NCBI GenBank assembly: GCA_000146045.2
Contig: BK006943.2
Coordinates: 480,001-544,000 of the forward strand
Reading direction: 5' to 3'
DNA: 64,000 nucleotides
From: TPA_inf: Saccharomyces
Lineage: Eukaryota
A program made the translations under genes and the position numbers. The first letter of the stretch is position 1. The number at the start of each line of letters is the position of its first letter. Of this stretch, positions 1-37,884 are shown piece after piece. Below the pieces are notes generated by a model. It ran no database searches, had not been told where the DNA came from, and saw only the letters and a list, made by a program, of their open reading frames with translations.

Positions 1-3000
1 GTACTTGCACCTATCGTAAAATATGGAGACTTTTACTGGGTATCTAAAAAGTACTTGCTTCCATCAAATATCTCCGTACCCACCATCAATAATGTCCATA
101 CAAGTGAAAGTACACGCAAATATCCTTATCCTTTCATTCATCGAATGCTTGCGCATGCCAATGCACAGACAATTCGATACTCACTTAAAAATAACACCAT
201 CACGTATTTTAACGAATCAGATGTCGACTGGTCTAGTGCTATTGACTATCAATGTCCTGATTGTTTAATCGGCAAAAGCACCAAACACAGACATATCAAA
301 GGTTCACGACTAAAATACCAAAATTCATACGAACCCTTTCAATACCTACATACTGACATATTTGGTCCAGTTCACAACCTACCAAAAAGTGCACCATCCT
401 ATTTCATCTCATTTACTGATGAGACAACAAAATTCCGTTGGGTTTATCCATTACACGACCGTCGCGAGGACTCTATCCTCGATGTTTTTACTACGATACT
501 AGCTTTTATTAAGAACCAGTTTCAGGCCAGTGTCTTGGTTATACAAATGGACCGTGGTTCTGAGTATACTAACAGAACTCTCCATAAATTCCTTGAAAAA
601 AATGGTATAACTCCATGCTATACAACCACAGCGGATTCCCGAGCACATGGAGTCGCTGAACGGCTCAACCGTACCTTATTAGATGACTGCCGTACTCAAC
701 TGCAATGTAGTGGTTTACCGAACCATTTATGGTTCTCTGCAATCGAATTTTCTACTATTGTGAGAAATTCACTAGCTTCACCTAAAAGCAAAAAATCTGC
801 AAGACAACATGCTGGCTTGGCAGGACTTGATATCAGTACTTTGTTACCTTTCGGTCAACCTGTTATCGTCAATGATCACAACCCTAACTCCAAAATACAT
901 CCTCGTGGCATCCCAGGCTACGCTCTACATCCGTCTCGAAACTCTTATGGATATATCATCTATCTTCCATCCTTAAAGAAGACAGTAGATACAACTAACT
1001 ATGTTATTCTTCAGGGCAAGGAATCCAGATTAGATCAATTCAATTACGACGCACTCACTTTCGATGAAGACTTAAACCGTTTAACTGCTTCATATCAATC
1101 GTTCATTGCGTCAAATGAGATCCAACAATCCGATGATCTTAACATAGAATCTGACCATGACTTCCAATCTGACATCGAACTACATCCTGAGCAACCGAGA
1201 AATGTCCTTTCAAAAGCTGTGAGTCCAACCGATTCCACACCTCCGTCAACTCATACTGAAGATTCGAAACGTGTTTCTAAAACCAATATTCGCGCACCCA
1301 GAGAAGTTGACCCCAACATATCTGAATCTAATATTCTTCCATCAAAGAAGAGATCTAGCACCCCCCAAATTTCCAATATCGAGAGTACCGGTTCGGGTGG
1401 TATGCATAAATTAAATGTTCCTTTACTTGCTCCCATGTCCCAATCTAACACACATGAGTCGTCGCACGCCAGTAAATCTAAAGATTTCAGACACTCAGAC
1501 TCGTACAGTGAAAATGAGACTAATCATACAAACGTACCAATATCCAGTACGGGTGGTACCAACAACAAAACTGTTCCGCAGATAAGTGACCAAGAGACTG
1601 AGAAAAGGATTATACACCGTTCACCTTCAATCGATGCTTCTCCACCGGAAAATAATTCATCGCACAATATTGTTCCTATCAAAACGCCAACTACTGTTTC
1701 TGAACAGAATACCGAGGAATCTATCATCGCTGATCTCCCACTCCCTGATCTACCTCCAGAATCTCCTACCGAATTCCCTGACCCATTTAAAGAACTCCCA
1801 CCGATCAATTCTCGTCAAACTAATTCCAGTTTGGGTGGTATTGGTGACTCTAATGCCTATACTACTATCAACAGTAAGAAAAGATCATTAGAAGATAATG
1901 AAACTGAAATTAAGGTATCACGAGACACATGGAATACTAAGAATATGCGTAGTTTAGAACCTCCGAGATCGAAGAAACGAATTCACCTGATTGCAGCTGT
2001 AAAAGCAGTAAAATCAATCAAACCAATACGGACAACCTTACGATACGATGAGGCAATCACCTATAATAAAGATATTAAAGAAAAAGAAAAATATATCGAG
2101 GCATACCACAAAGAAGTCAATCAACTGTTGAAGATGAAAACTTGGGACACTGACGAATATTATGACAGAAAAGAAATAGACCCTAAAAGAGTAATAAACT
2201 CAATGTTTATCTTCAACAAGAAACGTGACGGTACTCATAAAGCTAGATTTGTTGCAAGAGGTGATATTCAGCATCCTGACACTTACGACTCAGGCATGCA
2301 ATCCAATACCGTACATCACTATGCATTAATGACATCCCTGTCACTTGCATTAGACAATAACTACTATATTACACAATTAGACATATCTTCGGCATATTTG
2401 TATGCAGACATCAAAGAAGAATTATACATAAGACCTCCACCACATTTAGGAATGAATGATAAGTTGATACGTTTGAAGAAATCACTTTATGGATTGAAAC
2501 AAAGTGGAGCGAACTGGTACGAAACTATCAAATCATACCTGATACAACAATGTGGTATGGAAGAAGTTCGTGGATGGTCATGCGTATTTAAAAACAGTCA
2601 AGTGACAATTTGTTTATTCGTAGATGATATGGTATTGTTTAGCAAAAATCTAAATTCAAACAAAAGAATTATAGAGAAGCTTAAGATGCAATACGACACC
2701 AAGATTATAAATCTAGGCGAAAGTGATGAGGAAATTCAATATGACATTCTTGGCTTGGAAATCAAATACCAAAGAGGTAAATACATGAAATTGGGTATGG
2801 AAAACTCATTAACTGAAAAAATACCCAAACTAAACGTACCTTTAAACCCAAAAGGAAGGAAACTTAGTGCTCCAGGTCAACCAGGTCTATATATAGACCA
2901 GCAAGAACTAGAGCTAGAAGAAGATGATTACAAAATGAAGGTACATGAAATGCAAAAGCTGATAGGTCTAGCATCATATGTTGGATATAAATTTAGATTT

Positions 3001-3612
3001 GACCTATTATACTACATCAACACACTTGCACAACATATACTATTTCCGTCCAAGCAAGTGTTAGATATGACATATGAATTGATACAGTTCATATGGAATA
3101 CGAGAGATAAGCAATTAATATGGCACAAAAGCAAACCTGTTAAGCCAACAAATAAATTAGTTGTTATAAGCGATGCCTCGTATGGCAACCAACCGTATTA
3201 TAAATCACAAATTGGCAACATATATTTACTTAATGGAAAGGTAATTGGAGGAAAGTCCACCAAGGCTTCATTAACATGTACTTCAACTACGGAAGCAGAA
3301 ATACACGCGATAAGTGAATCTGTCCCATTATTAAATAATCTAAGTTACCTGATACAAGAACTTGACAAGAAACCAATTACCAAAGGATTACTAACCGACA
3401 GTAAATCTACAATCAGTATAATTATATCCAATAATGAAGAGAAATTTAGGAACAGATTTTTTGGTACTAAAGCAATGAGATTGAGAGATGAAGTATCAGG
3501 AAATCATCTGCACGTATGCTATATCGAAACCAAAAAGAATATTGCAGACGTAATGACCAAACCTCTTCCGATAAAAACATTCAAACTATTAACAAACAAA
3601 TGGATTCATTAG
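1..3612 (+). CDS. TYB: Ty1 TYB (Gag-Pol) C-terminal part, covering integrase, reverse transcriptase and RNase H. 5'-partial with no internal stop.
   Basis: Continuous 1185-codon ORF with Ty1 Pol motifs: integrase DD35E region (HTDIFGP.. TDET..), the RT core motif LFVDDMVLF (a YXDD-type box) and RNase H ([15 protein letters not shown]-like). TAG stop at 3610-3612. Confidence 0.93.
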
Positions 3613-3634: not shown

Positions 3635-3972
3635 TGTTGGAATAAAAATCCACTATCGTCTATCAACTAATAGTTATATTATCAATATATTATCATATAC
3701 GGTGTTAAGATGATGACATAAGTTATGAGAAGCTGTCATCGAAGTTAGAGGAAGCTGAAACGCAAGGATTGATAATGTAATAGGATCAATGAATATAAAC
3801 ATATAAAACGGAATGAGGAATAATCGTAATATTAGTATGTAGAAATATAGATTCCATTTTGAGGATTCCTATATCCTCGAGGAGAACTTCTAGTATATTC
3901 TGTATACCTAATATTATAGCCTTTATCAACAATGGAATCCCAACAATTATCTCAACATTCACATATTTCTCA
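3635..3972 (+). repeat. Ty1 3' LTR (delta), 338 bp.
   Basis: TGTTGGAATAAAAATCCACTATCG ... GGAATCCCAACAATTATCTCAACATTCACATATTTCTCA, with TG..CA termini and the conserved AAGCTGAAACGCAAGGATTGATAATGTAATAGGATCAATGAAT core. Confidence 0.93.
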
Positions 3973-6196
3973 GTTGCCTTACTTTAACAGAAGATAACAG
4001 AAGTGAAGAACTTATATATTCTGATGAGTCTTTCATATTAGCCAATTCTGAATTTTCAGTAGATGATCTAGTAACATTACGACTGAAGCATGAAGACGAA
4101 GATACCGTTGATAAAGTTCCTGTGGTGGTTGAGGGTGAAAGGGATGATGTCTGGCTACTTTGTAACTGATATTGTAACACATTCACCAACTTAGCAGCTT
4201 GCGCACAGCGTATAGACAGCGTGAGATCGTGGAGTGTTCCAAATACACTAGCTTTGAAATCAGAGGAAGGAATCCGAAGTTGAACATCTTGTGCCGTTGA
4301 TCTATTGTACTTCCAGGTGGGTTCCAATTTCACAACCAATTTACACTTCTCCTTTTCGAAGTCTTTATATACAATTAGTAAGGTCTCGTTGTCTCCGGAT
4401 AAAATTAAAGACAAACACAGCATGTCCTTACTCAAAGGCACCCATGACTTGCCGTTCCAAAGGGAAACTTTTACCGAATCGTTTTCGAAATATACTGCTC
4501 CTCCAGATGTGTTTATGCTTAACGGAAACGATACATACGTTTCATCAACGTTATCGTCATGGGGGGTTGCTGATACCGGGGTAACTGATTGTTGATTGCC
4601 TGGCAAACTAAACAATGATCTTGAATGATTTTTGGGAATATCGATAGTTAGATTCTTTTTGTTTTTTGAGAAGATGCTTAGTAAAGATGAAGATTTACGC
4701 CGATAAAGCGTTGGCTTATAGAAATCGATATCTGGATCGAATAAATCTTTATCTCGTTTATCCTTTCCATCTTCAGAAATTATACTCTCAGAATCGTCAA
4801 TTTCAGACGCAACACTCTCTATTAGTTCGGGAGAGACACTCTCCAGGCTGAAAGTTTGAGAAGCTGTTCTAATGTTTTTTAAGGTAGGTGTGTCCATATA
4901 TTTAGGCGAGAGAGGTACTTGAATGCTCTTATCCAATTCAATTAGCTTTTCACAACTTAGGGATTCAATATCTTTCAGAGAGGTGTCAAGATCTGAATCT
5001 TCGCTAACTGTTGCCCTCTCACTCATGATTGACAGTGACTCCTCGTCAGGGTATTCATTAGAGGTCTCTATTAAGGAAGACAGACTTCCCGGCAAAGGAA
5101 TTGATCTATGCAGTGTGCGACCATTGTGTATTGTATCTGATATCTTTACAGAGCTAATAGGCATATCGTCATTTCTTTTAGGAGAAGTATAATCAGGGTT
5201 GTTACTCCTAACATAAACCTGTTGAGAAATTTTACTTCCAGATCGCTTGTATTCTTTTGTAGCTGTTGAGTCGAAAAGCTTTCTAATAACATGTTTCCAA
5301 TACTCTTGCCATTGAATAGGATCTTTGCAAGTTAACCTCAATACAATGCTATTATTTATCGGTACCTTTAGTTTTGCTCCACTATCATCAAGTCTGATGA
5401 GATCAAGATCGCCGGACCTAAATGGTCGAAATAGCAGCGACCTCCCGACATTCATTAAGTCATGGTTTCCTAACGCAAGGGATTGGAACAAGTTATCAAT
5501 GGTTTGTAATGTGTATGGCATTTTTTCAGAAAGAACCTCAAATATAGCTATCTCCCCATTATCTAATTCAAGGATTTCAACTAGTTTATTATTGATCGCC
5601 AACTTCTTTACATCTAGTCTGTAATATGCTCTATTTATAACCTTATTGGAATCGATTGGCGGAAGATTAATCAGGGAAACTTCGCCTGATATAACGTCAC
5701 GAACGCTTCCGTATTTCAGTGAGTTACAGCTTATAAAGTCATAGCAACTTTTAAATTTGTATACAAACGCACTGATTAGGGAGCCTAGTCGTACTTCATT
5801 TGTGACATAGAAAATGTCCCTCAACTTATAATAAACCTTGAATAGTAATACCGCAAAAAGCTTTTGTGAATCCATCCTAAAGTATGACATGTTCGCATCG
5901 AGAAGCAAATGCATACATCCAAATAAAAGATTATGATACAAATCGAGTATTTGCGCATCTTTGAATAAACTCTTGTAAGAATTCACTATGGATTGTGTTA
6001 GAGACATGTCATCATGATTTGCAGCATGCTTTCTCAAAATGCATCTCAAGTAACCGCTAATTTTTCTCATTTCATGACCAACTTTAACCATTGGGTCCAA
6101 GCTCGAACCATGGTACCTGCTATGGGACTCACAGACAACGAGTAATCGTTTTAACAGAGTCTCGAAGCTCGCTTCTTCCTTGTTAAATAATTCCAT
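3959..6196 (-). CDS. YJR030C: YJR030C, uncharacterized protein of 745 aa. Its last 4 codons and the TGA stop lie inside the Ty1 LTR.
   Basis: ORF-track entry 3959..6208 (749 aa) begins with a GTG. The first in-frame ATG is at 6194-6196 ([15 protein letters not shown]...), giving 745 aa, and synteny with GEA1 and CPR7 fits. Stop is TGA at 3959-3961; the LTR ends at 3972. Confidence 0.88.
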
Positions 6197-6403
6197 CCCG
6201 TCTCCCACACAATACTAATTTGCTTGCTCGTTCGTAATTAGAGGAACTTTTACTTGGTTCATGATGAATTTTAATTGAACTGAGGGTAAAAGAGTAATCT
6301 CGATAAGGGTACATTTTTATTTTTCCCATTAAGTGAAATTTCCTTCAAATTATTCTCGAAGCTTTCATGCCATTGGTGACACGAAAAAAAAATCTTGTTG
6401 TAT

Positions 6404-6435
6404 TTTATCTAACGCGTCGCGACGCGTTAGATAAA
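6404..6435. promoter_or_regulatory. 32-bp perfect palindrome carrying two MluI cell-cycle boxes (ACGCGT x2, MBF-type), about 210 bp upstream of the YJR030C ATG.
   Basis: TTTATCTAACGCGTCGCGACGCGTTAGATAAA is exactly self-complementary. ACGCGT sits at 6412-6417 and 6422-6427 with TCGCGA at the centre. Confidence 0.55.
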
Positions 6436-6585: not shown

Positions 6586-9500
6586 CTACTCCTTCTCGAT
6601 TTCCCTCTTAGAAATAATCAACTCTTGCAACTGCCTTTCCACCGTAGGATCATCTACATACTTGTTAAATACGTTAAGCACTCTCAAAAAAGTTTCGTTA
6701 CTTGTTACGCCTTCCACAAGTTGACCCAAGAAGATTTTAGAAAGAACGGATAAAATGCTAGTAATTCGTTTCATCTTGACATCTTGGATTTCATCCAACT
6801 CAAAAATCGGTAATAATCCTGTCTCTAGTAGGTTATCCACCGCAACTTTTTCCGTACGTAGTTGACTTGCTCGAGATAACAGAATGTTCTCTAATGCTTG
6901 CAATGCTTGCATACCTAGTTCGTCACAGGGATTGAGGCATTGATGGGCGAGACCTTGAATAGCAGCTATAATCTCATTCTTGTTGAGTGCTGAATTACTC
7001 CTCCCAACAGTCGAAAGTAGGTCTGCAGTTATATTAATGGAACGACTAGAAAGATCAATAATAGAACGGTATGGATTGGATTCAGGTGCTTCACACCCAT
7101 CCTCGACTGAATTTTCATAATTTTGTTCCCATTTTGTGCCAACGGCACCTGCACATGACATTTCATCAAGCAGACTTAATATGTTCATAAAGTTCCCATC
7201 ATCTACAAAGATATCACCATTTTGAATGTATTTTTCCAAAAATGTGTAGACGGCAAATTGGCGGTCTTTGGCTGATATTAATATCCTTAAAAAATTCCAA
7301 AATTTTACATTTTTGAGAGCCCGCTCATTGTATTTTACGTCATTGAGATGTGTAAACAGATCATTTATTACTTGCTTCCCCCATTCACTTTCATAATATT
7401 TAGTATTGAAGATTTCATTTTTTACCAAAAAGTCGTGTTCTATTAAATCACTTAAAATGTCCCGTGGATTATCAAATCTCGAAACCAAAAACATTTTATA
7501 CGAGGCAAGTCTTGCAATAGCCTCCTTGGAAAGGCCATCTAAATTCGAAATATTAATCATATGATCAGCAATTAGTGCTCCAAATTCTTGTCCATAAGAA
7601 GCCTCTGATATTAATATAATGGATATTTCCAACAAAAAGAGAAGTTCTTGTTCGAAATAGGGCGAATTTTCACTCGTTTTTTCAATCACAAGTGAAGAGA
7701 GAAGAGTTTCAATCATCTTAGGACTGACGAGTTGATTGTTCTCAAAGACTGAACTGAGAGGATGGCTAGCCTTAACGCACTCAAATGCTTTAATGGAAAA
7801 ATCGATGTCTTCTTCCGAAGGTTCTTCATCGCCTTTCAAGTAAGAGGCGAAAGTAGACAGAAGGCTTCTGCTCATCTTTGCCTTGCGGATCGATATATCT
7901 GGATCTGGCAATGGTAGTTCAGGAAGTTTCAAGAGTGAATGAAAGTTTGTAAAAAATGGTAAATTAGGTTCCATCAATAAATTCTCGAATAATTTCAAAA
8001 TGAGTTGCACAATCTGGTTCCATAGTCTGGTAGAAACAATGCTAGGATCACTTATTTCTTTAATGATTTGAAAGTACAATACGGTACATAACTGAGCCTT
8101 AAAGTTTTGTCCAAGTCTTATACTCTGGTTACTAACGGATATCTTCGACCCAGTGTCTTCGACGAATATCTCGACCAAAGGAATACTGTCAACATCTAGC
8201 TCCACCGCTTTTGCGCTACTTTGTGCCAATGTTGTCATTTCTCCCAGATGAAGTACAGTATCATTATATGACTGGTCAAAAGAAAAGTAATAGTTGATAA
8301 ATGTACACTTACTAATGGCGTCCAAGATACGTAATGATATTTGATCACTGGAAGCAACTGTGAATATTTTGAATAAAGTCTTCAGGATAATATCTCTAAC
8401 ATTTGAGAAAATTGCTTTCTCATACTGAAGTATGTCTATTTGCGCTAACTTAGAAATAGGGTTTGTGAAATCTCTTTGCATCTCTGTCATCACAGATGTT
8501 GAGGATATTAAGTTATTCCAGGCATCTTCAAACCACCTTTCATTTCCATGATGTTCTTCAGGCATTACTATTTCCTTAACTTTGATGGACGTGTAAATTT
8601 TATGCAAATACCAACGAGGAAAATCTTTTCCATTGTAGCATCCTCGTAAATTGTTAGAGTAGTCATCAAAAGTCATATGGTCTTTAACCTGCGGGTTATG
8701 TGAATCGGTATTTAACATGATTATCGAATAACTTAACACAAACACAGAGTCTGCATCAGGCTGTACATGAATGATGTCATCTTCTGTCATTGACTCTGAG
8801 CCATTTTTTCCTGCTTTTTTATCCTCTAACTCCACTTTATCATTGCTTTGATCAGCAGAATATTTTGATGAAAATGCTTCAACGATTCTTTCAATCTGTT
8901 GAGATTCCCCTGGTAATCTGAATTTCGTCAGCAAAATTCTGATCGCTTCATCAACCCTTAACCCTTTAAAATCGAATAGATCTATAAATTCTTTTAACAA
9001 TGAAGTTTTTTTCGGATCACAAAGTAATAGACCGATGGTTTTCTTATTTAAACGTCCGTTATTGAGAAACAAAAATGAAGCAATGTCTCTATTAGAATCC
9101 GAATCAATGAATCCTTTTTCAATTAACATTTGAATGCCTTTCTTTGCCTTTTCATTAAATGTTTCAACGCATAATATGAATTCAGTCTTTCTGTCTCTCT
9201 GTTTCAAAATATCAATTTCTTTCTGATTTTTTACGAATTCTGCCCTATCAAATCTCTGCAGATCATTGTATATATTTTCAATAAGCGAAAGTACACCTTC
9301 TAGGCAAATTGGAGGAATGTTGTTAGAGGTATTAACGGCCGCCGCTGGTAAAGAAAATTTAGTTAGCTCTTTTATAAAGTCAATCGAAAGATCCGACCTA
9401 TCCAAATTACAATCGAAATTTACAAAAAGTTGCAAAAAGAAAGCGGGAGAGTGAATCCACAGTATTGAAAGTTGTTCAATAATTAATTCCCTGATTGCAG

Positions 9501-10812
9501 GTGGTTTTTGCTTACTAACGTCACCACTGATTGTGGTATCCTCTAGAATTTCGAATATTCTCCTTAAAGTCAGTTCAATCTGCATAGGCAAATAATCACC
9601 CAATATCACAACCAAACTCGTGAATAATTGTAAAGTTGCTTGCAAAAGAGAATACTGGGTAGAACTTTGTATAATGAATAAAACACTTTTAAATATTGGA
9701 TCAGAAATTAAGCTGAATAACCGGGGATATAGAGGAAATTTGTCACCGGATATTTCAATGGCTGCATTGATTAACTGTAGAGATAATTTCATGGCCGAAG
9801 TTGTGTGCTTCATTCTATTCTCTGGCATAACCAGTGATAACAATAATCCAAGATAATCCTTTATAACTGTTATTCCGTAATTTGGCTCGACATTTTCGGC
9901 TTTCTCAGCCGTTTCCTCATCATTTTCCTGTTCCCTTATGACCTGTTGGACTGGCTTCTCATTTTTATTATCGTCTGCAACAGCACTGTCATCATCAGTG
10001 CTACTCAAATCGTTATCAGAGGTAGTCGTACCTATAATGTCATCCTTCAAATTATTGTCGGTGTAACTTTCATCATTGATATATTTTTCTGTTTTTGTAG
10101 GTGGATCTAGTAACTTCAACTTTGTAAATAGTTTAACGGTTATCCCTGCAATTGTAACTTCAGCCGTTTTCCTCAAAACCTCGCTTCTCTGCGTATTACA
10201 TGCCAAGGAAAGTGTCGTTTGTAAAACATCGTAGATTATAGTATCGGAGAGATAGTCTCCAAAGGAAGAGGTTATAATATCGCGTAGTAATGTTACAACT
10301 TTTAATAAAACAGAGTCGTCCGAAATTTGCTTTGAAGCTTCAAATCTACAATGTGTAAGCGCAACAACGGTTTCCCTAACGGCAATTTGAATATCATTAA
10401 ATGTTTTGTTTATGATTTTTAGTGTAAAAACTTTCTGCAACGAGTCCAGAGCCAGAGAAGTAGTATAACCCGATACTGAACTAGCGCTGACTATTTCTAA
10501 AAATGGTTTCAAAAGTTCCAAGGCGTTTAATGAATCTAAACCCTTCAAGTCGTTAATTTTTAGCCGCAGCTGTACTAAACCAGATATCAGAGGATCATGA
10601 TAGCTAGAAGTAGGCAAATTGTGGAAGCTGTCAACAAACGAATCACTTTGACTCAAGAATATATCACTACCTCCGCCCAGCAACGCGGCCACACTTGTTT
10701 GTGATTTATCTCTGGACTGCTTGTTCATGGCAGAACAAAGATTGATGCACTCTTTGACAATCATCGTAGCTGGGTTCACGGCCAAAACAGTTTCCATTGG
10801 CACGTCGTGCAT
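6586..10812 (-). CDS. GEA1: GEA1, Sec7-domain ARF guanine-nucleotide exchange factor (1408 aa).
   Basis: ATG at 10810-10812. Sec7 catalytic motif FRLPGESQQIERIVEAF, length 1408 aa (GEA1 rather than the 1459-aa GEA2) and the chrX neighbours all agree. Confidence 0.95.
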   Translation of the reverse strand: MHDVPMETVLAVNPATMIVKECINLCSAMNKQSRDKSQTSVAALLGGGSDIFLSQSDSFVDSFHNLPTSSYHDPLISGLVQLRLKINDLKGLDSLNALELLKPFLEIVSASSVSGYTTSLALDSLQKVFTLKIINKTFNDIQIAVRETVVALTHCRFEASKQISDDSVLLKVVTLLRDIITSSFGDYLSDTIIYDVLQTTLSLACNTQRSEVLRKTAEVTIAGITVKLFTKLKLLDPPTKTEKYINDESYTDNNLKDDIIGTTTSDNDLSSTDDDSAVADDNKNEKPVQQVIREQENDEETAEKAENVEPNYGITVIKDYLGLLLSLVMPENRMKHTTSAMKLSLQLINAAIEISGDKFPLYPRLFSLISDPIFKSVLFIIQSSTQYSLLQATLQLFTSLVVILGDYLPMQIELTLRRIFEILEDTTISGDVSKQKPPAIRELIIEQLSILWIHSPAFFLQLFVNFDCNLDRSDLSIDFIKELTKFSLPAAAVNTSNNIPPICLEGVLSLIENIYNDLQRFDRAEFVKNQKEIDILKQRDRKTEFILCVETFNEKAKKGIQMLIEKGFIDSDSNRDIASFLFLNNGRLNKKTIGLLLCDPKKTSLLKEFIDLFDFKGLRVDEAIRILLTKFRLPGESQQIERIVEAFSSKYSADQSNDKVELEDKKAGKNGSESMTEDDIIHVQPDADSVFVLSYSIIMLNTDSHNPQVKDHMTFDDYSNNLRGCYNGKDFPRWYLHKIYTSIKVKEIVMPEEHHGNERWFEDAWNNLISSTSVMTEMQRDFTNPISKLAQIDILQYEKAIFSNVRDIILKTLFKIFTVASSDQISLRILDAISKCTFINYYFSFDQSYNDTVLHLGEMTTLAQSSAKAVELDVDSIPLVEIFVEDTGSKISVSNQSIRLGQNFKAQLCTVLYFQIIKEISDPSIVSTRLWNQIVQLILKLFENLLMEPNLPFFTNFHSLLKLPELPLPDPDISIRKAKMSRSLLSTFASYLKGDEEPSEEDIDFSIKAFECVKASHPLSSVFENNQLVSPKMIETLLSSLVIEKTSENSPYFEQELLFLLEISIILISEASYGQEFGALIADHMINISNLDGLSKEAIARLASYKMFLVSRFDNPRDILSDLIEHDFLVKNEIFNTKYYESEWGKQVINDLFTHLNDVKYNERALKNVKFWNFLRILISAKDRQFAVYTFLEKYIQNGDIFVDDGNFMNILSLLDEMSCAGAVGTKWEQNYENSVEDGCEAPESNPYRSIIDLSSRSINITADLLSTVGRSNSALNKNEIIAAIQGLAHQCLNPCDELGMQALQALENILLSRASQLRTEKVAVDNLLETGLLPIFELDEIQDVKMKRITSILSVLSKIFLGQLVEGVTSNETFLRVLNVFNKYVDDPTVERQLQELIISKREIEKE

Positions 10813-17098: not shown

Positions 17099-17117
17099 AT
17101 ATATATATATATATATA
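17099..17117. repeat. (AT)9-10 dinucleotide microsatellite in the PET191/RAD26 intergenic region.
   Basis: ATATATATATATATATATA. Confidence 0.9.
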
Positions 17118-17303: not shown

Positions 17304-17325
17304 ATATATATATATATATATATAT
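17304..17325. repeat. (TA)11 dinucleotide microsatellite about 30 bp upstream of the RAD26 ATG.
   Basis: TATATATATATATATATATATA. Confidence 0.9.
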
Positions 17326-17354
17326 AACATTGCTCAGAGAAACATACATCAGTG

Positions 17355-23935: not shown

Positions 23936-26900
23936 ATGCCAGCAGGGAGGATTCGTATAGCGATGACTGACAACATTATAGTAAGTGAGGTTGATGGTCC
24001 CCCGGATGTAGTTAAATGTTTTATTAGGGAAGAAGATGGACTCGAAGGACAGAGCCGAGAATTGGTGGTCATAGGACTAGAATATATAGATGTGTTTGAA
24101 GGGGTAGAACAAGATGAAGCGCGCAAGAAGTTAAGACTTAGGACTGTCGGATATACAATGGCAGCCTTTTATTTCAAAGATCATACTGCACCTAACCGAA
24201 GATTTTATATTCTGTTGAAAGCCACGGGACGGTTGGACTTCGTCAACCTTGATTACAAAATAGTGAAATCTCTGGAAACAGGAATTGATCAGGTAAGATC
24301 AGAGCCAAAGTTCATGTTCCAAGATCCACTACGAACAGCTCTGGTTTTTAATTTGTCATGCACTGAAATTTACGAGATTTCTACTGAGGACATTTTTTGT
24401 TTGGAAGAAACAGACGTTAAGCTGAGTTATGTGACATCCTCACCGATAGTATCCATAGATGCGTGTATCAATTTCAATGATTTCTTAGATAAGGATGTCT
24501 TTACGTTGTCGATTCTCACACGTGCACACAATGAGGTTGCATATAAGTTGGAAGCATGCGTGTGTGTATTCGAGTCTAAACCAGCCAAAGGAACGAAGTG
24601 GCAAAGAACTACCAATTTAACATTTGTGGAGGAAGCAACGGTCTCACAAGTACTTCTCAAATCGGTCACCAATATTGGTCATTTTGTTTTTACGCCATGG
24701 AAAACTTATTTTATTAAACATGCATTGTCATCGAAACAGACCATTGATGGTAAAACGGTAGACAAAATATACCAAGGGCCTGGTGCCTTTGGGTCTGATA
24801 ACATGGAAAGAATCGAACTTTTGCAGCCTATTTTAGCGGATACCACATTAAATCATTTAACATTTACATTTATGACGAGTACTGCAATTCTAATAACATG
24901 CAGAATGAATGCAATCCTTAGCAGTTTTGAAGACGATACGTATATCTGGGAAAAGGCCTTGTTTGAGAGGCTTCCCATCAATGGTGGTTCCTCACATGAT
25001 CACTACCTTGCAGCGTTTTTCAATGAGAAGTGTTGGATACTGGTATCCCCAAAGGGCCATCTTACAGTATATTCAGTCAGAAATGAAGGGCATAGTAATT
25101 TTGTTCATCTTGGTTCTTTTCTTTGCAAATCAACCTTATATTCCGATTTGATAGGGAACTACACCAAGTCACATTTATCTTGTGGATCATTACACTGTGG
25201 GCAGGGATACTTGTGCTTGAAATTTCGATCGTGTGGGGACATTTTCGCGTCCACTTGCATGAAGCTACTTTTCAAAAGTAAAGACAGTGTTCCTCGACAA
25301 GTTTACTCTACAAGAAAAGGTATCTATTGGGCAGATGTGAATAATAATGTTTACAGAGATAGTGAGCGAATAGACTTTGAAATAAATGGCAGTTTCATTG
25401 CTACTAAAGATGGAACTCTATTGAAAGATAACACTATCGTTACTTTGGTCCCAATTCAAAGAGATAATGAGTGTAATTACGCATACGTCACAAAACAAGG
25501 TTATCTGAGGTGGAGTTTTTCAAAGGTTTATTACCGGATTCAAAACACGGGAGTTGATTTGACTATAGATAATTGCTTTTTATCTGCTATATCTAGCAAG
25601 GGCTCTTTTTTGACTGTACTTGTTCTGAATGATGAAATAACGGTATTTGATCATTGCAACCGTTTGAAAAGCCAGAAAGTAGTTTTCCATAGACTTTCTG
25701 ACTTAGCGTCCATTTTCCTATATGAATACGAAAGCACGGTCTACATTTTCATGTCTGACACCGAAGGAAACCTTTGCGTTATGAAATTGGCAACTTTTGA
25801 GATCGTAGAAGAGGTTAAAATTTGCAAGAAGAAGTTACAGTTCTGTGAAGTCCCTAACTCAGATTATTTTTTTATATATACAGCCGATACTATAATTTTT
25901 TTCAAGCCAAGTAAAATAAAAGGTAGATTTAAAATCCAAGAAGTATATGCACCATGTCCTATAAGCTGTTTGATACCTGGAGAAAAAGATGGCTCAGTTG
26001 TTATGGTTACTTCTCAAGGTCAATTTTACGACGTACTTGTTCCTGGTGATGCCGGAAGGGCTACTCTTTGTTCTAAGTTTGAAAAAGTTTTAAAAACATG
26101 TCTCAAATTTATAACTTTGGAATCTTCATCAAGATATGTGATTGTAGCGGCCCTGCCAGTAGCAAATCCATTGCAGGACAAGTATTCCGAAATTTATGTG
26201 TATGATATTAAACAGTTCAAAAACATTTCCGCATTCAATTTTTCTAACCTCAACAATGATATCGAGAGTATAAAATATGAAAACGCTATGATATCAGATA
26301 TTATTGCCGTACCCATGCTCAAAAGAACCGAAACATTAGGAAAAAGAAAGACTTCTGAGCTGTATAAGGAAGTGATTTTCAATTCATGTATCTTGGTGTC
26401 TCTAAATTTAGACTCAATAGACGGTATTGATAGTAAAAATATGAATAACCTATTATTGTTTTCATTTGATGAGGAATCGGGTTTTATTGAATTTGTTTTT
26501 GGGATTAACACGGGGTTCTCAATCAGTGGGTTACATAACTATTACAATGGATGTGTTTTGGTTTATGGGGAGTTTGTGCAAGCTTATCAACTGAACTATT
26601 CAGTTCATGATAACAAGTTCAGTATTGAACAGGTTTCAAATAGGTTGAATATTTCTGGTATTACAATAACATCATCTATATTTTTTGATAAAAGGAAGGC
26701 AAAGATGGCTAGGAAGCAGCAAAATATAGGTACATGGGTTTATTTGGAAGAAATGATTTTACTTGATGTACGGAAAGGTGTGATGAGGTTCAATGTCATC
26801 CATACAACAGACGGTAACATAGAAAAGGTTCAATTGCAGGTACAGCCTCTGAATTTATTTGAGAGGGACCTCATCAATAGCATTACCGACACCGGGAAAA

Positions 26901-27301
26901 TGTTTACCGGTGCAGCCGCTATAACTTTCAAGAATATTAGGTATCTACTAATTTCGTACGGTGATCAAAAGCTCACGTTATTTAGTTTAAAACTTGATGG
27001 TGAGGAAGAAATAGACGAAAGAGTGTACCATGTTGCTGAGCAAGTTACAACCATCAACTCTGTAAGAACTACTGATTCCAGAATGAGCACGTTTTTAGGC
27101 GAATCTACATTTATGCCCTTATTCTTAGTAAGTACCTTGTCTAACGGTTGTTATGTGATCGGAATCCTGCATGAAGAGTCAGATATCTCATTACATATCT
27201 TATCAGAAAAGAAAGCTGTCTTCGCAAAGCGGTCGGTTCAAAAGTTCCTGGGCTTCCTCGATCCTCAAATGGATGATCACACTGTAATATCTGAAATTTA
27301 G
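23936..27301 (+). CDS. YJR039W: YJR039W, large uncharacterized protein (1121 aa).
   Basis: Uninterrupted 1121-codon ORF with ATG at 23936. Coding-like composition and synteny; I recognise no domain. Confidence 0.85.
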
Positions 27302-27745
27302 TGTCTACGTTATGATATATACACTTACAAATTTACTTTCCTTTTTTAGTATAGTTTTCAAGTAAAATTCTTGAAGCGGTGTTGTTTTTGTTTGTTCTTC
27401 GTTTAGCAAAAGTCATTGTTAAATACACGCTATAATATGGCCATGACCGTAGGACCGAATGCTGTCCGAAAAATGATACTTATCACACATTTCAAATAAG
27501 ATCGGTTTTGTAGTTCAAAGATTTCTTAAGAGCCTTTTACGTGTTTCTTAAGAAACACTTCACATTGGCTATCATTATTAGTAAATAGATTTATATGATT
27601 TTCACTTATTAAGGACAGAAATGTCGCGATTTCGAACCCATAAAAAAAGGAAAAGCACCGCCTGTTCTCCAGTCTTCATAAAAGCACACCGTATAGAAAG
27701 GGCGGTGAATGTTGATCTTGCATACTATAAAATTATTTGACACTA

Positions 27746-30085
27746 ATGCCAACAACTTATGTGCCAATAAATCAACCAATTGGGGATGGTGAAGATGTCA
27801 TTGACACCAATCGATTCACCAATATTCCAGAAACGCAAAATTTTGACCAATTTGTTACAATTGATAAGATTGCTGAGGAAAATAGACCACTGTCTGTAGA
27901 CTCGGACAGGGAGTTCCTTAATTCAAAATATCGACATTACCGAGAGGTTATATGGGACCGTGCAAAAACATTTATCACATTAAGCTCTACGGCCATAGTT
28001 ATTGGATGTATTGCTGGTTTCCTACAAGTCTTCACGGAAACTCTGGTTAACTGGAAAACAGGTCATTGTCAGAGGAACTGGCTACTTAATAAATCCTTCT
28101 GTTGTAACGGCGTGGTTAATGAGGTTACCTCTACAAGCAATTTACTACTGAAAAGACAAGAGTTTGAATGCGAGGCACAAGGGCTTTGGATTGCCTGGAA
28201 GGGACATGTGTCCCCTTTTATAATTTTCATGCTTTTGTCAGTCTTATTTGCTCTAATTAGTACACTGTTAGTCAAATATGTTGCTCCTATGGCTACTGGT
28301 TCAGGAATCTCAGAGATTAAGGTATGGGTATCAGGTTTTGAATACAATAAGGAATTTTTGGGTTTCTTAACATTAGTCATTAAAAGTGTTGCCCTTCCTT
28401 TGGCTATTTCTTCGGGATTAAGCGTAGGTAAAGAAGGGCCCTCAGTTCATTATGCAACCTGTTGTGGGTACTTACTCACAAAATGGCTACTAAGAGATAC
28501 TTTGACGTATTCATCGCAATATGAGTATATCACAGCAGCTAGTGGAGCAGGTGTTGCGGTTGCTTTTGGTGCTCCTATTGGTGGTGTCCTTTTTGGTTTG
28601 GAAGAGATTGCTTCTGCGAATAGGTTTAACTCCTCTACCTTATGGAAATCCTATTATGTCGCCCTAGTCGCAATAACTACTTTGAAGTACATTGATCCAT
28701 TTAGGAATGGCAGAGTTATTTTATTCAATGTAACATATGATAGAGACTGGAAGGTACAAGAGATTCCGATCTTTATAGCCTTAGGAATCTTTGGTGGTTT
28801 ATATGGAAAATATATTAGTAAGTGGAACATCAACTTTATTCACTTTCGCAAAATGTACCTGTCCTCATGGCCAGTTCAAGAAGTGCTTTTTTTGGCGACG
28901 CTTACTGCTTTGATTTCTTACTTCAATGAGTTCTTGAAATTAGACATGACAGAAAGTATGGGTATATTGTTTCATGAATGTGTCAAGAACGATAACACCT
29001 CAACTTTTAGTCATAGGTTATGTCAGTTGGATGAAAATACGCACGCTTTTGAGTTCTTAAAAATTTTTACTTCCCTATGCTTTGCCACTGTTATCAGGGC
29101 CTTGTTGGTGGTGGTATCATATGGCGCCAGAGTTCCTGCCGGAATCTTTGTTCCTTCAATGGCGGTTGGGGCCACATTTGGACGGGCAGTAAGTCTACTG
29201 GTAGAGAGATTTATAAGTGGCCCTTCTGTTATTACTCCTGGTGCCTACGCCTTCCTGGGAGCAGCCGCTACCTTGAGCGGGATAACTAACTTGACTTTAA
29301 CTGTGGTGGTAATAATGTTCGAGCTAACAGGCGCCTTCATGTATATCATACCCCTTATGATTGTAGTGGCAATAACAAGGATAATTTTAAGCACGTCTGG
29401 TATTTCTGGCGGTATTGCTGATCAAATGATCATGGTTAATGGATTCCCATATTTGGAAGACGAGCAAGACGAGGAAGAGGAGGAAACCTTAGAAAAATAC
29501 ACTGCAGAGCAGCTCATGTCCTCCAAATTAATTACTATTAATGAAACCATTTACCTTTCCGAGCTTGAATCTTTGTTGTACGACTCAGCGTCTGAATATT
29601 CTGTGCATGGTTTTCCAATAACTAAGGATGAGGATAAGTTTGAGAAGGAAAAAAGATGTATTGGCTATGTTTTAAAAAGGCACTTAGCCAGTAAAATCAT
29701 GATGCAAAGCGTAAATAGCACCAAAGCTCAAACGACACTGGTATACTTCAATAAGTCTAACGAAGAGTTGGGACATCGTGAAAACTGCATCGGATTTAAG
29801 GATATTATGAATGAATCTCCAATCTCGGTGAAGAAGGCGGTGCCAGTAACATTGTTATTCCGTATGTTTAAAGAGCTAGGTTGTAAGACTATCATCGTAG
29901 AGGAAAGTGGAATTTTAAAGGGGTTGGTCACTGCTAAAGATATTTTGAGGTTCAAAAGAATTAAGTATCGAGAAGTTCACGGTGCGAAATTTACATATAA
30001 TGAAGCACTTGATAGAAGATGTTGGTCAGTTATCCATTTCATAATCAAAAGGTTTACCACTAATCGAAATGGTAACGTTATATGA
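27746..30085 (+). CDS. GEF1: GEF1, CLC-family voltage-gated chloride channel with C-terminal CBS domains (779 aa).
   Basis: CLC selectivity-filter motifs GSGISEIK and GKEGP, plus GxFxP-like (GIFVPSMAVGA). ATG at 27746; the tracked ORF starts at TTG 27737. Confidence 0.95.
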   Translation: MPTTYVPINQPIGDGEDVIDTNRFTNIPETQNFDQFVTIDKIAEENRPLSVDSDREFLNSKYRHYREVIWDRAKTFITLSSTAIVIGCIAGFLQVFTETLVNWKTGHCQRNWLLNKSFCCNGVVNEVTSTSNLLLKRQEFECEAQGLWIAWKGHVSPFIIFMLLSVLFALISTLLVKYVAPMATGSGISEIKVWVSGFEYNKEFLGFLTLVIKSVALPLAISSGLSVGKEGPSVHYATCCGYLLTKWLLRDTLTYSSQYEYITAASGAGVAVAFGAPIGGVLFGLEEIASANRFNSSTLWKSYYVALVAITTLKYIDPFRNGRVILFNVTYDRDWKVQEIPIFIALGIFGGLYGKYISKWNINFIHFRKMYLSSWPVQEVLFLATLTALISYFNEFLKLDMTESMGILFHECVKNDNTSTFSHRLCQLDENTHAFEFLKIFTSLCFATVIRALLVVVSYGARVPAGIFVPSMAVGATFGRAVSLLVERFISGPSVITPGAYAFLGAAATLSGITNLTLTVVVIMFELTGAFMYIIPLMIVVAITRIILSTSGISGGIADQMIMVNGFPYLEDEQDEEEEETLEKYTAEQLMSSKLITINETIYLSELESLLYDSASEYSVHGFPITKDEDKFEKEKRCIGYVLKRHLASKIMMQSVNSTKAQTTLVYFNKSNEELGHRENCIGFKDIMNESPISVKKAVPVTLLFRMFKELGCKTIIVEESGILKGLVTAKDILRFKRIKYREVHGAKFTYNEALDRRCWSVIHFIIKRFTTNRNGNVI

Positions 30086-37630: not shown

Positions 37631-37656
37631 TTTCGCGTGTTTAACTCATACGCGTT
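37631..37656. promoter_or_regulatory. MCB/SCB-type G1/S elements about 120-145 bp upstream of POL32 (ACGCGT and CGCGAAA on the complement).
   Basis: TTTCGCGTGT (complement ACACGCGAAA) at 37631-37640 and ACGCGTTTAC at 37650-37659. DNA-replication genes are typically MBF targets. Confidence 0.6.
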
Positions 37657-37812: not shown

Positions 37813-37884
37813 TAGCGCCGCTCGGTTTCGATCCGAGGACATCAGGGTTATGAGCCCTGCGCGCTTCCACTGCGCCACGGCGCT
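37813..37884 (-). tRNA. tM(CAU): Initiator tRNA-Met (anticodon CAU, IMT family), 72 nt, no intron.
   Basis: The reverse complement reads AGCGCCGTGGCGCAGTGGAAGCGCGCAGGGCTCATAACCCTGATGTCCTCGGATCGAAACCGAGCGGCGCTA. This has the A1:U72 pair and the GGG/CCC anticodon-stem pairs diagnostic of eukaryotic initiator tRNA, and a downstream T-run terminator. Confidence 0.95.

What the first reader, a model, noticed from the sequence alone, without database searches (positions are those of the whole stretch)
6404..6435. 32-bp perfect palindrome with a double MluI cell-cycle box in the YJR030C promoter
TTTATCTAACGCGTCGCGACGCGTTAGATAAA is exactly self-complementary over 32 bp. It holds two ACGCGT MCB cores 10 bp apart, one helical turn. 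Tandem MCBs at this spacing are the classical MBF (Mbp1-Swi6) G1/S architecture. A perfect palindrome of this length is also unusual, being cruciform-capable. It sits about 210 bp upstream of the ATG of a gene of unknown function.
Basis: partly seen in the sequence, partly recalled or inferred. Interest (0 to 1): 0.5.

Follow-up and report, generated by a model that had tools for sequence, protein, structure and literature searches.

The report
Palindromic double MluI box, RBH2 promoter
The 32-base perfect palindrome is real and is the already-documented cell-cycle (MBF) control element of yeast gene YJR030C/RBH2; what is new is that its two halves have evolved in lock-step, which looks like DNA replication copying one half from the other rather than a special function.

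Summary
Window 6404-6435 is an exact 32-bp palindrome with ACGCGT at 6412 and 6422, lying 208-239 bp upstream of the YJR030C/RBH2 ATG (6196, minus strand) and 151 nt past the GEA1 stop. About 0.008 such palindromes are expected per yeast genome.

The MBF reading is supported but already published. Ferrezuelo 2010 ranks YJR030C 33rd of 111 MBF targets, with Mbp1 ChIP-chip hits in four studies, a G1/S peak, and Cln3 induction that is lost in swi6Δ and mbp1Δ swi4Δ.

Three results appear new:
- S. cerevisiae carries two alleles, both perfect palindromes, differing by one mirrored double substitution. No intermediates were seen in 14 sequences.
- S. paradoxus has the second allele. S. uvarum and S. 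eubayanus keep 11- and 16-bp arms, with the 6-nt spacer exactly reverse-complemented between them. S. mikatae and S. kudriavzevii have lost the symmetry.
- A V. polyspora homologue has its MCB pair inside an unrelated 46-bp quasi-palindrome.

Best reading: a known MBF element whose symmetry comes from replication template switching, seeded by two self-complementary hexamers. Cruciform or RNA function is unsupported. Interest is modest.

The parts
6404..6435 (.). Perfect 32-bp palindrome TTTATCTAACGCGTCGCGACGCGTTAGATAAA (S288C-type allele A). It amounts to two outward-facing extended MCBs (ACGCGTTA, fitting the ACGCGTNA consensus) around a CGCG centre.
   Evidence: As a single DNA strand it folds as a hairpin at -14.4 kcal/mol, z = -6.2.
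6412..6417 (.). MCB core ACGCGT proximal to RBH2, at -216 to -221 from the ATG. In S. mikatae and S. kudriavzevii this copy is degenerate (CACGT, AACGC).
6422..6427 (.). MCB core ACGCGT distal to RBH2, at -226 to -231. The ACGCG core is kept in all six Saccharomyces species.
6407..6407 (.). Polymorphic arm position, A in S288C-type strains and C in allele B. It changes together with its mirror position 6432.
6432..6432 (.). Mirror polymorphic arm position, T in S288C-type strains and G in allele B.
6380..6392 (+). SCB-type element CACGAAA (6380-6386) running into an A9 tract. It is invariant in six Saccharomyces species and is a likely Swi4/Mbp1 site plus a nucleosome-excluding tract.
6350..6379 (-). 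Block of about 30 bp, nearly invariant in six species (RBH2 sense: CAC[C/G]AATGGC[A/G]TGAAAGCTTCGAGAATAA). The factor that binds it is unknown.
3959..6196 (-). YJR030C/RBH2 ORF, the regulated gene. The S288C allele is 745 aa, cut short by a Ty1 LTR.
6586..10812 (-). GEA1 (YJR031C). Its 3' end is 151 nt upstream of the palindrome on the same strand, so the palindrome is also in the GEA1 3' flank.

Best explanation
The palindrome is the core of the G1/S upstream activating region of RBH2 (YJR030C).

How the element works:
- Two MluI cell-cycle boxes are bound by MBF (Mbp1-Swi6). The conserved SCB 18 bp closer to the gene gives Swi4/SBF partial access.
- At Start, Cln3-Cdc28 activates these Swi6-containing factors and RBH2 is transcribed in a late-G1 burst. 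Shut-off in S phase by the MBF co-repressor Nrm1 is inferred from what is known of other MBF targets.
- Published results show promoter-level Mbp1 occupancy, G1/S periodicity, and dependence on Cln3 and Swi6.
- That these particular hexamers are the bound sites is inferred from sequence, position and conservation.

Why it is a perfect palindrome:
- The 32-bp perfection is most likely not itself the functional feature.
- ACGCGT is its own reverse complement, so two copies 10 bp apart are already a G+C-rich inverted repeat.
- During replication a nascent strand can fold back on such a repeat and copy one arm from the other. This is short-range template switching, also called quasi-palindrome correction.
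- That process homogenises the arms, extends them, mirrors a new substitution onto the other arm, and occasionally inverts the spacer.
- Symmetry therefore persists and spreads while the arm sequence drifts, and it decays for good once one arm is badly damaged, as in S. mikatae and S. kudriavzevii.

My probability that this is an MBF element is about 0.9. My probability that the symmetry is mainly a template-switch product is about 0.6.
For: MBF element, from published data:
- Rank 33 of 111 MBF targets, Mbp1 ChIP-chip in four studies, 2 ACGCG within 200 bp of the TSS, cell-cycle peak at 17%.
- MBF score +9.1 against SBF score -2.79.
- After GAL-CLN3 induction, log2 change at 20/40 min: wild type 0.82/0.52, mbp1Δ 0.25/0.41, swi4Δ 0.13/0.46. 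It is about zero in swi6Δ, mbp1Δ swi4Δ and cln3Δ.
- Membership of a tight G1/S cluster with DNA-replication genes.

MBF element, from sequence comparison:
- All six Saccharomyces species keep at least one ACGCGT here. The 10-bp register has no indels, and the SCB is invariant.
- Family homologues in V. polyspora, a Torulaspora-like yeast, Maudiozyma and an unnamed yeast all carry MCB or MCB/SCB elements 170-410 bp upstream.

Template switching:
1. Among 13 natural S. cerevisiae sequences plus the window there are two alleles, TTTATC...GATAAA (11 sequences) and TTTCTC...GAGAAA (3 sequences). Both are perfect palindromes and no intermediates were seen.
2. Only 4 substitutions are private to the minor-allele group across 3.9 kb, and 2 of them are this mirrored pair. 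The chance probability is 2e-4 to 4e-6.
3. S. paradoxus, S. uvarum and S. eubayanus carry C:G at this pair, so the S288C form is derived. S. mikatae, whose palindrome has decayed, has A at the same position without the mirror change.
4. The S. uvarum spacer TCACAT and the S. eubayanus spacer ATGTGA are exact reverse complements between identical arms. The chance probability is 2.6e-7. Spacer or loop inversion is a recognised template-switch footprint.
5. On the S. cerevisiae/S. paradoxus branch, three changes within 4 nt (ATCA to GACG) all restore complementarity to the other arm and recreate the second ACGCGT.
6. The symmetry is far beyond chance in S. cerevisiae, S. paradoxus, S. uvarum and S. 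eubayanus (hairpin z from -5.1 to -9.6, 0/100 shuffles). It is absent in S. mikatae and S. kudriavzevii (z +0.6 and 0.0), although the rest of the promoter stays conserved there.
7. The mechanism is documented: quasi-palindrome mutations in yeast (PMC3820800), homogenisation of promoter inverted repeats with alternative perfect versions and spacer inversions across S. cerevisiae strains, and an excess of perfect inverted repeats in the yeast genome.
Against: - No site-level data. ChIP-chip resolves the intergenic region, not the hexamers, and no mutagenesis of this promoter was found.
- The formal covariation test is weak. There are 3 pairs with changes on both sides, and 31/500 and 44/500 column shuffles reach the observed scores. 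All species have T-rich left and A-rich right flanks, so much of the arm symmetry could come from conserved extended half-sites rather than from copying.
- A perfect palindrome gives template switching nothing to change. The mirrored polymorphism therefore still needs an ordinary first mutation, followed by correction or selection, and these data cannot tell the two apart.
- An unrelated 46-bp quasi-palindrome around the MCB pair of a V. polyspora homologue is an odd coincidence for a purely neutral process. It may point to selection for symmetry in this gene family.
- The only other MCB pair available, at POL32, shows no extended symmetry. Seeding by hexamer pairs is thus not general on n = 2.
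Confidence: 0.62

Rival explanations
1. The extended symmetry is selected at the protein level. Two MBF complexes, or MBF plus a partner, would bind as a symmetric pair on the same face of the helix, and flanking bases out to about 16 bp would contribute. Both arms would then be held to the same optimal sequence.
For: - The 10-bp register has no indel in six species.
- Each arm reads outward as an extended MCB, ACGCGTTA or ACGCGTAA.
- An independent long quasi-palindrome carries the MCB pair in V. polyspora.
- Dimeric factors on perfect inverted repeats are a known theme.
Against: - An optimum flank should be the same in all species. Instead the arms differ between clades and between S. cerevisiae strains while staying complementary.
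- S. mikatae and S. kudriavzevii lost the second box and the symmetry but keep the rest of the promoter.
- In V. polyspora the boxes sit at the outer ends of the arms, 38 bp apart, which is a different geometry.
- The POL32 pair is asymmetric.
- The co-varying positions lie 4-8 bp outside the hexamer.
Confidence: 0.17
2. The palindrome functions as a nucleic-acid hairpin. This could be an RNA stem-loop in GEA1 read-through or 3'-end transcripts that affects termination or stability, or a DNA cruciform that modulates the promoter or replication.
For: - Hairpin predictions are strong in four species.
- It lies 151 nt downstream of the GEA1 stop, just past a conserved TATATA element.
- Yeast inverted repeats cluster in the 3' flanks of genes.
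- Compensatory changes are the classical signature of a selected stem.
Against: - The structure is lost completely in S. mikatae and S. kudriavzevii.
- The loop is not conserved and is inverted between sister species.
- Rfam gives only far sub-threshold generic miRNA-hairpin hits, 20-25 bits against a gathering score of 70-80.
- Energetic analysis found no perfect short-spacer inverted repeat in the genome that is cruciform-susceptible, and the centre is G+C-rich.
- The V. polyspora palindrome has no called gene within the 1.2 kb upstream.
- Whether GEA1 transcripts reach the palindrome is unknown.
Confidence: 0.07
3. In S288C-type strains the derived arm sequence matters in its own right. The mirrored change created two inverted GATAA motifs (TTTATC ... 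GATAAA) about 25 bp apart. This is the kind of pair used by GATA factors such as Dal80/Gzf3 or Gln3/Gat1, and it would add nitrogen control to a cell-cycle promoter.
For: - Sequence only: allele A has GATAA on both strands and allele B has GAGAA.
- A template-switch expansion creating a Dal80 site is reported at ERT1.
- YJR030C is a validated QTL gene for residual sugar in a wine x sake cross, in which GAT1 was another of the candidate genes examined.
- The GATA-pair requirement is from my own knowledge and was not checked here.
Against: - No binding or expression data support it.
- The QTL authors attribute the effect to coding changes.
- GATAA is a short, common motif in A+T-rich promoters.
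- The alleles carried by the QTL parents are unknown.
Confidence: 0.05
4. Chance: two MCBs happen to lie in a palindromic context and there is nothing further to explain.
For: 6 of the 16 pairs come for free from two self-complementary hexamers, and the flanks are A+T-rich.
Against: - The other 10 pairs have P = 1.8e-6.
- About 0.008 such palindromes are expected per genome.
- 0/100 shuffles reach the observed arm length.
- The mirrored polymorphism and the spacer inversion are each very improbable on their own.
Confidence: 0.01

Closest known systems
Paired MluI cell-cycle boxes of MBF-regulated G1/S promoters (for example CDC45, CDC21, RFA1/2, POL32, RAD51 in the Ferrezuelo 2010 list)
   Same: Two ACGCG(T) cores within 200 bp of the TSS, Mbp1 ChIP signal, peak at 14-24% of the cycle, and induction by Cln3 through Swi6. 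YJR030C is itself on that list at rank 33.
   Different: The two boxes are embedded in a perfect 32-bp palindrome. The one other example I could inspect (POL32, window 37633-37655) has 17-bp spacing and no flanking symmetry. The gene product has no known role in DNA replication.
Promoter inverted repeats homogenised or expanded by template switching in S. cerevisiae strains (Rozenfeld et al. 2026, GRE2, ERT1, CAP1/LAC1; PMC13100816)
   Same: A perfect inverted repeat overlapping transcription-factor sites near the TSS. Alternative perfect versions occur at identical coordinates in different strains, and spacer inversion is seen in relatives.
   Different: Zero spacer. The repeat is seeded by a self-complementary factor core present twice, and it predates the S. 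cerevisiae/S. paradoxus split rather than being strain-specific. Only two changes separate the alleles, below that study's filter of 3 or more changes. The locus is not named in the paper's main text, and its tables were not available to me.
Template-switch creation and maintenance of hairpin stems (Mönttinen and Löytynoja 2022, PMC8794818; Löytynoja and Goldman 2017, PMC5453318)
   Same: Compensatory changes without observed intermediates, loop inversion, and perfect stems arising in a single event.
   Different: Those cases are RNA genes whose stems are functional. Here there is no evidence that the hairpin is ever used, and the functional units are duplex protein-binding sites.
Quasi-palindrome mutation hotspots in yeast reporters (Kim et al. 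2013, PMC3820800; Ripley 1982 model)
   Same: [quoted passage not shown]
   Different: Those are experimental hotspots in a highly transcribed reporter gene. This is a natural intergenic site, and the process is inferred only from comparative data.

Membership tests
MBF (Mbp1-Swi6) regulated G1/S promoter element (MCB) | One or more ACGCGT cores close upstream of the TSS | tested here: met
   ACGCGT at 6412 and 6422, that is -216 and -226 from the ATG. Ferrezuelo 2010 counts 2 ACGCG within 200 bp upstream of the mapped TSS.
MBF (Mbp1-Swi6) regulated G1/S promoter element (MCB) | In vivo occupancy of the promoter by Mbp1/Swi6 | tested here: met
   Literature look-up: 'TF binding 15-18', meaning Mbp1 ChIP-chip positive in Iyer 2001, Simon 2001, Lee 2002 and Harbison 2004. 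Resolution is the intergenic region, not the hexamers.
MBF (Mbp1-Swi6) regulated G1/S promoter element (MCB) | Periodic mRNA peaking at G1/S | tested here: met
   Peak at 17% of the cycle, among 648 consensus cell-cycle genes. Member of the tight C1 cluster with CDC45, POL2, POL3, RNR1 and RAD27.
MBF (Mbp1-Swi6) regulated G1/S promoter element (MCB) | Induction depends on Cln3 and on Swi6 and Mbp1 | tested here: met
   Induction is abolished in cln3Δ, swi6Δ and mbp1Δ swi4Δ. It is reduced or delayed in mbp1Δ and also in swi4Δ, so Mbp1 and Swi4 are partly redundant here.
MBF (Mbp1-Swi6) regulated G1/S promoter element (MCB) | Mutating the ACGCGT cores abolishes periodic expression | not tested
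   No such experiment was found in the nine papers that mention YJR030C. It cannot be done with these tools.
MBF (Mbp1-Swi6) regulated G1/S promoter element (MCB) | Motif conserved in orthologous promoters | tested here: met
   At least one ACGCGT at the aligned position in 6 of 6 Saccharomyces species. MCB or MCB/SCB elements are present in four more distant homologues.
Inverted repeat shaped by short-range template switching (quasi-palindrome correction) | Differences between relatives are mirrored and complementary in the two arms, more often than independent substitution allows | tested here: met
   The mirrored double SNP within S. cerevisiae has P of 2e-4 to 4e-6. A symmetrising 3-in-4-nt cluster lies on the S. 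cerevisiae/S. paradoxus branch. The generic covariation score is only marginal.
Inverted repeat shaped by short-range template switching (quasi-palindrome correction) | Spacer (loop) inversion between identical arms | tested here: met
   S. uvarum TCACAT against S. eubayanus ATGTGA, an exact reverse complement, P = 2.6e-7.
Inverted repeat shaped by short-range template switching (quasi-palindrome correction) | Direct demonstration of the switch (mutation spectrum or rate at an engineered mismatch; dependence on replication factors) | not testable with these tools
   Needs a yeast reporter or a mutation-accumulation experiment.
Cruciform-forming or fragile palindrome | Arm and spacer lengths and composition that allow extrusion at physiological superhelicity | tested here: not met
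   Strawbridge 2010: none of the perfect long-copy, short-spacer inverted repeats in the S. cerevisiae genome is susceptible to extrusion. The centre CGCGTCGCGACGCG is G+C-rich. In vivo probing was not possible.
Known structured RNA family | Match to an Rfam covariance model at gathering score | tested here: not met
   Best hits are 20-25 bits to miRNA or snoRNA hairpin models whose gathering scores are 70-80.

The most novel reading that the evidence does not exclude
Pairs of self-complementary factor cores such as ACGCGT may act as built-in seeds for replication fold-back. Under this reading, MBF promoters in general tend to grow, maintain and occasionally flip long perfect palindromes. One template switch could duplicate a binding site in inverted orientation, as inferred for the RBH2-proximal MCB in the S. 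cerevisiae/S. paradoxus ancestor. It could also install a new motif on both sides at once, as with the two GATAA motifs of the S288C allele.

A stronger version is that the RBH family is actually selected for a palindromic MCB pair. That would explain why unrelated long palindromes carry the pair in both Saccharomyces RBH2 and a V. polyspora homologue.
Probability: 0.2. Interest if true: 0.55.

Novelty: new member of a known kind. Interest (0 to 1): 0.3.

Why it matters
As a regulatory element this adds nothing. YJR030C/RBH2 has been on MBF target lists since 2001.

The locus is useful as a compact natural example of how a mutational mechanism can imitate selection. It shows compensatory changes, 'conserved' secondary structure and very strong hairpin z-scores at a site whose function is duplex protein binding. 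Anyone scanning yeast intergenic DNA for structured elements or cruciforms would flag it wrongly.

It also suggests a testable general idea. Palindromic factor cores present in pairs could be hotspots where template switching duplicates, symmetrises or re-orients binding sites. That would be a route for cis-regulatory turnover.

One practical point: the reference-strain RBH2 allele is truncated by a Ty1 element. Phenotypes from S288C-derived strains may therefore understate the function of this gene, which is a validated fermentation QTL in wild strains.

Tried and rejected
- RBH1 promoter: I tried to retrieve the promoter of the paralogue RBH1/YJL181W, to see whether it also has a palindromic MCB pair. 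The search with P0007 returned only pre-duplication (Torulaspora, Zygosaccharomyces) orthologues. The profile search returned 2 proteins. All three protein searches and all 12 contig look-ups are now used. From the literature, RBH1 is MBF target number 86, with 3 ACGCG.
- P0006, a further Saccharomyces-like orthologue: its contig starts just downstream of the palindrome, so it has no usable upstream sequence.
- Metagenome scan with the invariant 24-mer: one contig, an S. cerevisiae allele-B sequence.
- Formal covariation counting on 7 sequences: register-specific (76% paired against 41-57% when slid), but the column-shuffle control was not decisive. I therefore rest the argument on the specific events, not on this score.
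- Rfam: only noise.
- Pfam on RBH2, truncated or full-length: no hit in this copy of the library. I could not say which domain the Ty1 truncation removes.
- Papers: Spellman 1998 is not held. The supplements of Harris 2013 and Rozenfeld 2026 are not held.
- L009 turned out to be a synthetic chromosome, with a loxPsym insert and recoded tags, and was excluded from the population comparison.
- S. paradoxus introgression as the source of allele B: rejected, because the flanks of allele-B strains are S. cerevisiae-type.
- An earlier idea that S. cerevisiae and S. paradoxus corrected an ancestral mismatch in opposite directions: dropped once allele B was found inside S. cerevisiae.
Full report
**1. 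The observation**

Window 6404-6435 is TTTATCTAACGCGTCGCGACGCGTTAGATAAA. It equals its own reverse complement, and the symmetry ends exactly at both borders. ACGCGT starts at 6412 and 6422, so the two cores are 10 bp apart.

It is the longest palindrome in the 64 kb. The others of 18 bp or more are (AT)n runs and one unique 18-mer.

From window base composition, a 16-pair palindrome is expected 4e-5 times per window and 0.008 times per 12-Mb genome. Two symmetric ACGCGT give six pairs for free, and the other ten pairs still have P = 1.8e-6. No dinucleotide shuffle of the intergenic region gave arms longer than 10. A published survey found fewer than one perfect inverted repeat with copies longer than 15 per randomised yeast genome. 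The feature is real and is not chance.

**2. Where it is**

The window is S. cerevisiae chromosome X.
- The ORF 145-3612 (+) has integrase and reverse-transcriptase domains, so it is Ty1.
- The ORF 3959-6196 (-) is YJR030C/RBH2. Its orthologues are named Rbh2p or YJR030C-like.
- The ORF 6586-10812 (-) is GEA1, with a Sec7 domain and GEA1-RBH2-BNA1-MDE1 synteny in five other Saccharomyces species.

The RBH2 ATG is at 6196, so the palindrome spans -208 to -239. It is also 151-182 nt downstream of the GEA1 stop on the same strand.

**3. What it does: already known**

Ferrezuelo et al. 2010 (PMC2911115) rank YJR030C 33rd of 111 MBF targets. [quoted passage not shown] Its MBF score is +9.1 and its SBF score is -2.79.

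Their arrays give the log2 change after GAL-CLN3 induction:

| Strain | 20 min | 40 min |
|---|---|---|
| wild type | 0.82 | 0.52 |
| mbp1Δ | 0.25 | 0.41 |
| swi4Δ | 0.13 | 0.46 |
| swi6Δ, mbp1Δ swi4Δ, cln3Δ | about 0 | about 0 |

An independent clustering study places YJR030C in a 19-gene core with CDC45, POL2, POL3, RNR1, RAD27 and RFA2. An older annotation paper already notes an 'MBP-1 binding site'.

The conclusion is not new. The partial dependence on Swi4 fits a perfect SCB (CACGAAA, window 6380-6386) that is invariant in six species, 18 bp from the palindrome.

**4. Comparative anatomy**

I aligned the GEA1-RBH2 intergenic region of six Saccharomyces species. All sequences below are in RBH2 sense.

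| Species | Arrangement at the site |
|---|---|
| S. paradoxus | Perfect 32-bp palindrome, TTTCTCTAACGCGTCGCGACGCGTTAGAGAAA |
| S. eubayanus | CGTTTTCTTTTACGCG-ATGTGA-CGCGTAAAAGAAAACG (16-bp arms, 6-nt spacer) |
| S. uvarum | TCTTTTACGCG-TCACAT-CGCGTAAAAGA (11-bp arms, 6-nt spacer) |
| S. mikatae, S. kudriavzevii | RBH2-distal ACGCGT and spacer TCGCAT kept; second box degenerate (CACGT, AACGC); no symmetry |

Predicted single-strand hairpin z-scores:

| Sequence | z-score |
|---|---|
| S. cerevisiae, allele A | -6.2 |
| S. cerevisiae, allele B | -6.3 |
| S. paradoxus | -5.8 |
| S. uvarum | -5.1 |
| S. eubayanus | -9.6 |
| S. mikatae | +0.6 |
| S. kudriavzevii | 0.0 |

The 10-bp register has no indel in any species. 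S. kudriavzevii and S. uvarum have an extra ACGCG about 25 bp closer to the gene, which is ordinary site turnover.

**5. The arms change together**

(a) Within S. cerevisiae. I compared 13 natural sequences plus the window.
- There are two alleles: A, TTTATC...GATAAA (11 sequences, including S288C), and B, TTTCTC...GAGAAA (3 sequences, identical to S. paradoxus).
- Both are perfect palindromes, and there are no intermediates.
- The flanks of allele-B strains are S. cerevisiae-type, so this is not introgression.
- Across a 3.9-kb alignment only four substitutions are private to the B group, and two of them are this mirrored pair.
- The chance probability is 2e-4 counting only the intergenic region, or 4e-6 over the 3.9 kb.
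- The outgroups carry C:G, so allele A is derived.
- S. mikatae, where the palindrome has decayed, has A at the same position without the mirror change.

(b) The spacers of S. uvarum (TCACAT) and S. eubayanus (ATGTGA) are exact reverse complements between identical arms. They account for six of the 40 differences in 389 aligned bases, with P = 2.6e-7. S. eubayanus also has a 2-nt insertion in one arm matched by a substitution in the other, which lengthens the perfect arms to 16 bp.

(c) On the S. cerevisiae/S. paradoxus branch, three changes within four bases (ATCA to GACG) all restore complementarity to the other arm. Together they recreate the RBH2-proximal ACGCGT and make the centre palindromic. 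This polarity rests on parsimony and is an inference.

(d) Between the S. cerevisiae and S. eubayanus clades, arm positions 9 and 11 from the centre differ on both sides and stay complementary.

A generic covariation count is only marginal. There are 3 double-sided pairs, and 31-44 of 500 column shuffles reach the observed values. The flanks are T-rich on one side and A-rich on the other in all species. I therefore weigh the specific events (a) to (c), not that score.

**6. Mechanism of the symmetry**

Mirrored changes, arm extension and spacer inversion are the published footprints of short-range template switching during replication. The supporting reports are:
- quasi-palindrome mutations in yeast (PMC3820800);
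- hairpin stems created and maintained by template switching, including loop inversions (PMC8794818);
- homogenisation of promoter inverted repeats across S. cerevisiae strains, with alternative perfect versions at the same coordinates and spacer inversions (PMC13100816).

Because ACGCGT is self-complementary, two copies are already a 6-bp G+C-rich inverted repeat. My inference is that this seeds the fold-back.

The loss of symmetry in two species that keep the rest of the promoter argues against the symmetry being required.

This explanation is inferred and has limits. A first ordinary mutation is still needed, and selection for symmetry cannot be excluded.

**7. An unexplained coincidence**

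The V. polyspora homologue Kpol_2001p42 lies next to ATP12, which neighbours RBH1 in S. cerevisiae by my recollection of the gene map (not checked here). Its two ACGCGT sit at the outer ends of an unrelated 46-bp quasi-palindrome, GACGCGTAAACCTTAAACTATAA|TTATAATTTAAGGTTTACGCGTC. It has 17-bp perfect arms and 22 of 23 pairs overall (L026:793-838), and 0/100 shuffles match it.

Three other homologues have MCB or SCB elements without symmetry: a Torulaspora-like yeast, Maudiozyma, and an unnamed yeast with GON7-RBH-ATP12 synteny. The POL32 MCB pair in this window also lacks symmetry.

This could mean that MCB pairs often seed palindromes, or that this gene family favours them. I could not retrieve RBH1 promoters to test this.

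**8. Rivals**

- Symmetric protein binding is possible, given the fixed 10-bp register and outward-facing extended boxes. It does not explain arms that differ between lineages yet stay complementary, nor the losses.
- RNA-hairpin or cruciform function is unsupported. The structure is lost in two species and the loop is inverted. Rfam gives only noise, and published energetic work finds no cruciform-susceptible perfect repeat in the genome.
- The derived S288C allele creates two inverted GATAA motifs. This is a speculative lead only.
- Chance is excluded.

**9. Verdict**

The MBF interpretation is supported and already known.

The added value is that the palindrome is a clean natural case of arms evolving in concert at a transcription-factor site. 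That makes it a new member of a recently described kind. Interest is modest.

Noticed in passing
window 3635-3973: The S288C RBH2/YJR030C ORF is truncated by a Ty1 LTR (TGTTGG...TTCTCA, 3635-3972). The last four codons and the stop (LRNM*) are LTR-encoded, and about 95 conserved C-terminal residues are missing. Other Saccharomyces species and 7 of the 12 natural S. cerevisiae loci fetched have an 836-840 aa gene call followed directly by BNA1. Only L010/L019, which are one assembly, show the 745-aa call, and the rest have no call or a fragment. The gene is a validated fermentation QTL with a strong deletion phenotype in wild strains.
   Followed up: yes
window 6350-6392: A block of about 40 bp between the palindrome and the ATG is almost invariant in six species: TTTTTTCGTGTCAC[C/G]AATGGC[A/G]TGAAAGCTTCGAGAATAA in RBH2 sense. 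It holds a perfect SCB (CACGAAA, 6380-6386), an A9 tract, and a TTCGAGAA / GCTTCGAG core with no assigned factor.
   Followed up: partly
L026:793-838: The V. polyspora homologue Kpol_2001p42 has its two ACGCGT at the outer ends of a 46-bp quasi-palindrome (17-bp perfect arms, 22 of 23 pairs). It is unrelated in sequence to the Saccharomyces palindrome and is the second long palindrome carrying an MCB pair in this gene family.
   Followed up: partly
window 6407 and 6432: The derived S288C-type allele turns GAGAA into GATAA on both arms, creating two inverted GATA-factor-like motifs about 25 bp apart flanking the MCB pair.
   Followed up: no
window 37633-37655: The 350-aa ORF 36461-37513 (minus strand), which I take to be POL32/YJR043C from its length and map position (not confirmed by a tool; POL32 is MBF target number 25), has TCGCGT and ACGCGT 17 bp apart upstream. 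There is no flanking symmetry, and the pair is about 160 bp from a tRNA-Met gene (37813-37884).
   Followed up: partly
L009 (GCA_033956085.1), about 150-185 bp upstream of the palindrome and in blocks through GEA1: This 'strain' is a synthetic chromosome. It has a 34-bp loxPsym site (ATAACTTCGTATAATGTACATTATACGAAGTTAT, itself a palindrome) inserted after the GEA1 stop, blocks of synonymous recoding, and no gene call at RBH2 (BNA1 begins near 11200). Its natural 32-bp palindrome was left intact.
   Followed up: no
window 58555-58626 and 61508-61579: One ACGCGT (58575) lies inside the tRNA-Arg(CCT) gene and one TCGCGT (61542) inside the tRNA-Asp gene. Not every MluI site in the window is a candidate MCB.
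   Followed up: no
window 27541-27558; 17099-17117; 17304-17326: A unique 18-bp perfect palindrome, GTGTTTCTTAAGAAACAC, at 27541 lies between two same-strand ORFs (23936-27301 and 27746-30085). Two (AT)n microsatellites lie at about 17.1 and 17.3 kb.
   Followed up: no
L007:1501-1632: The S. kudriavzevii orthologue is annotated with a 44-aa N-terminal extension not shared by any other species. This is probably a mis-called start, since the conserved ATG is 132 nt downstream.
   Followed up: no
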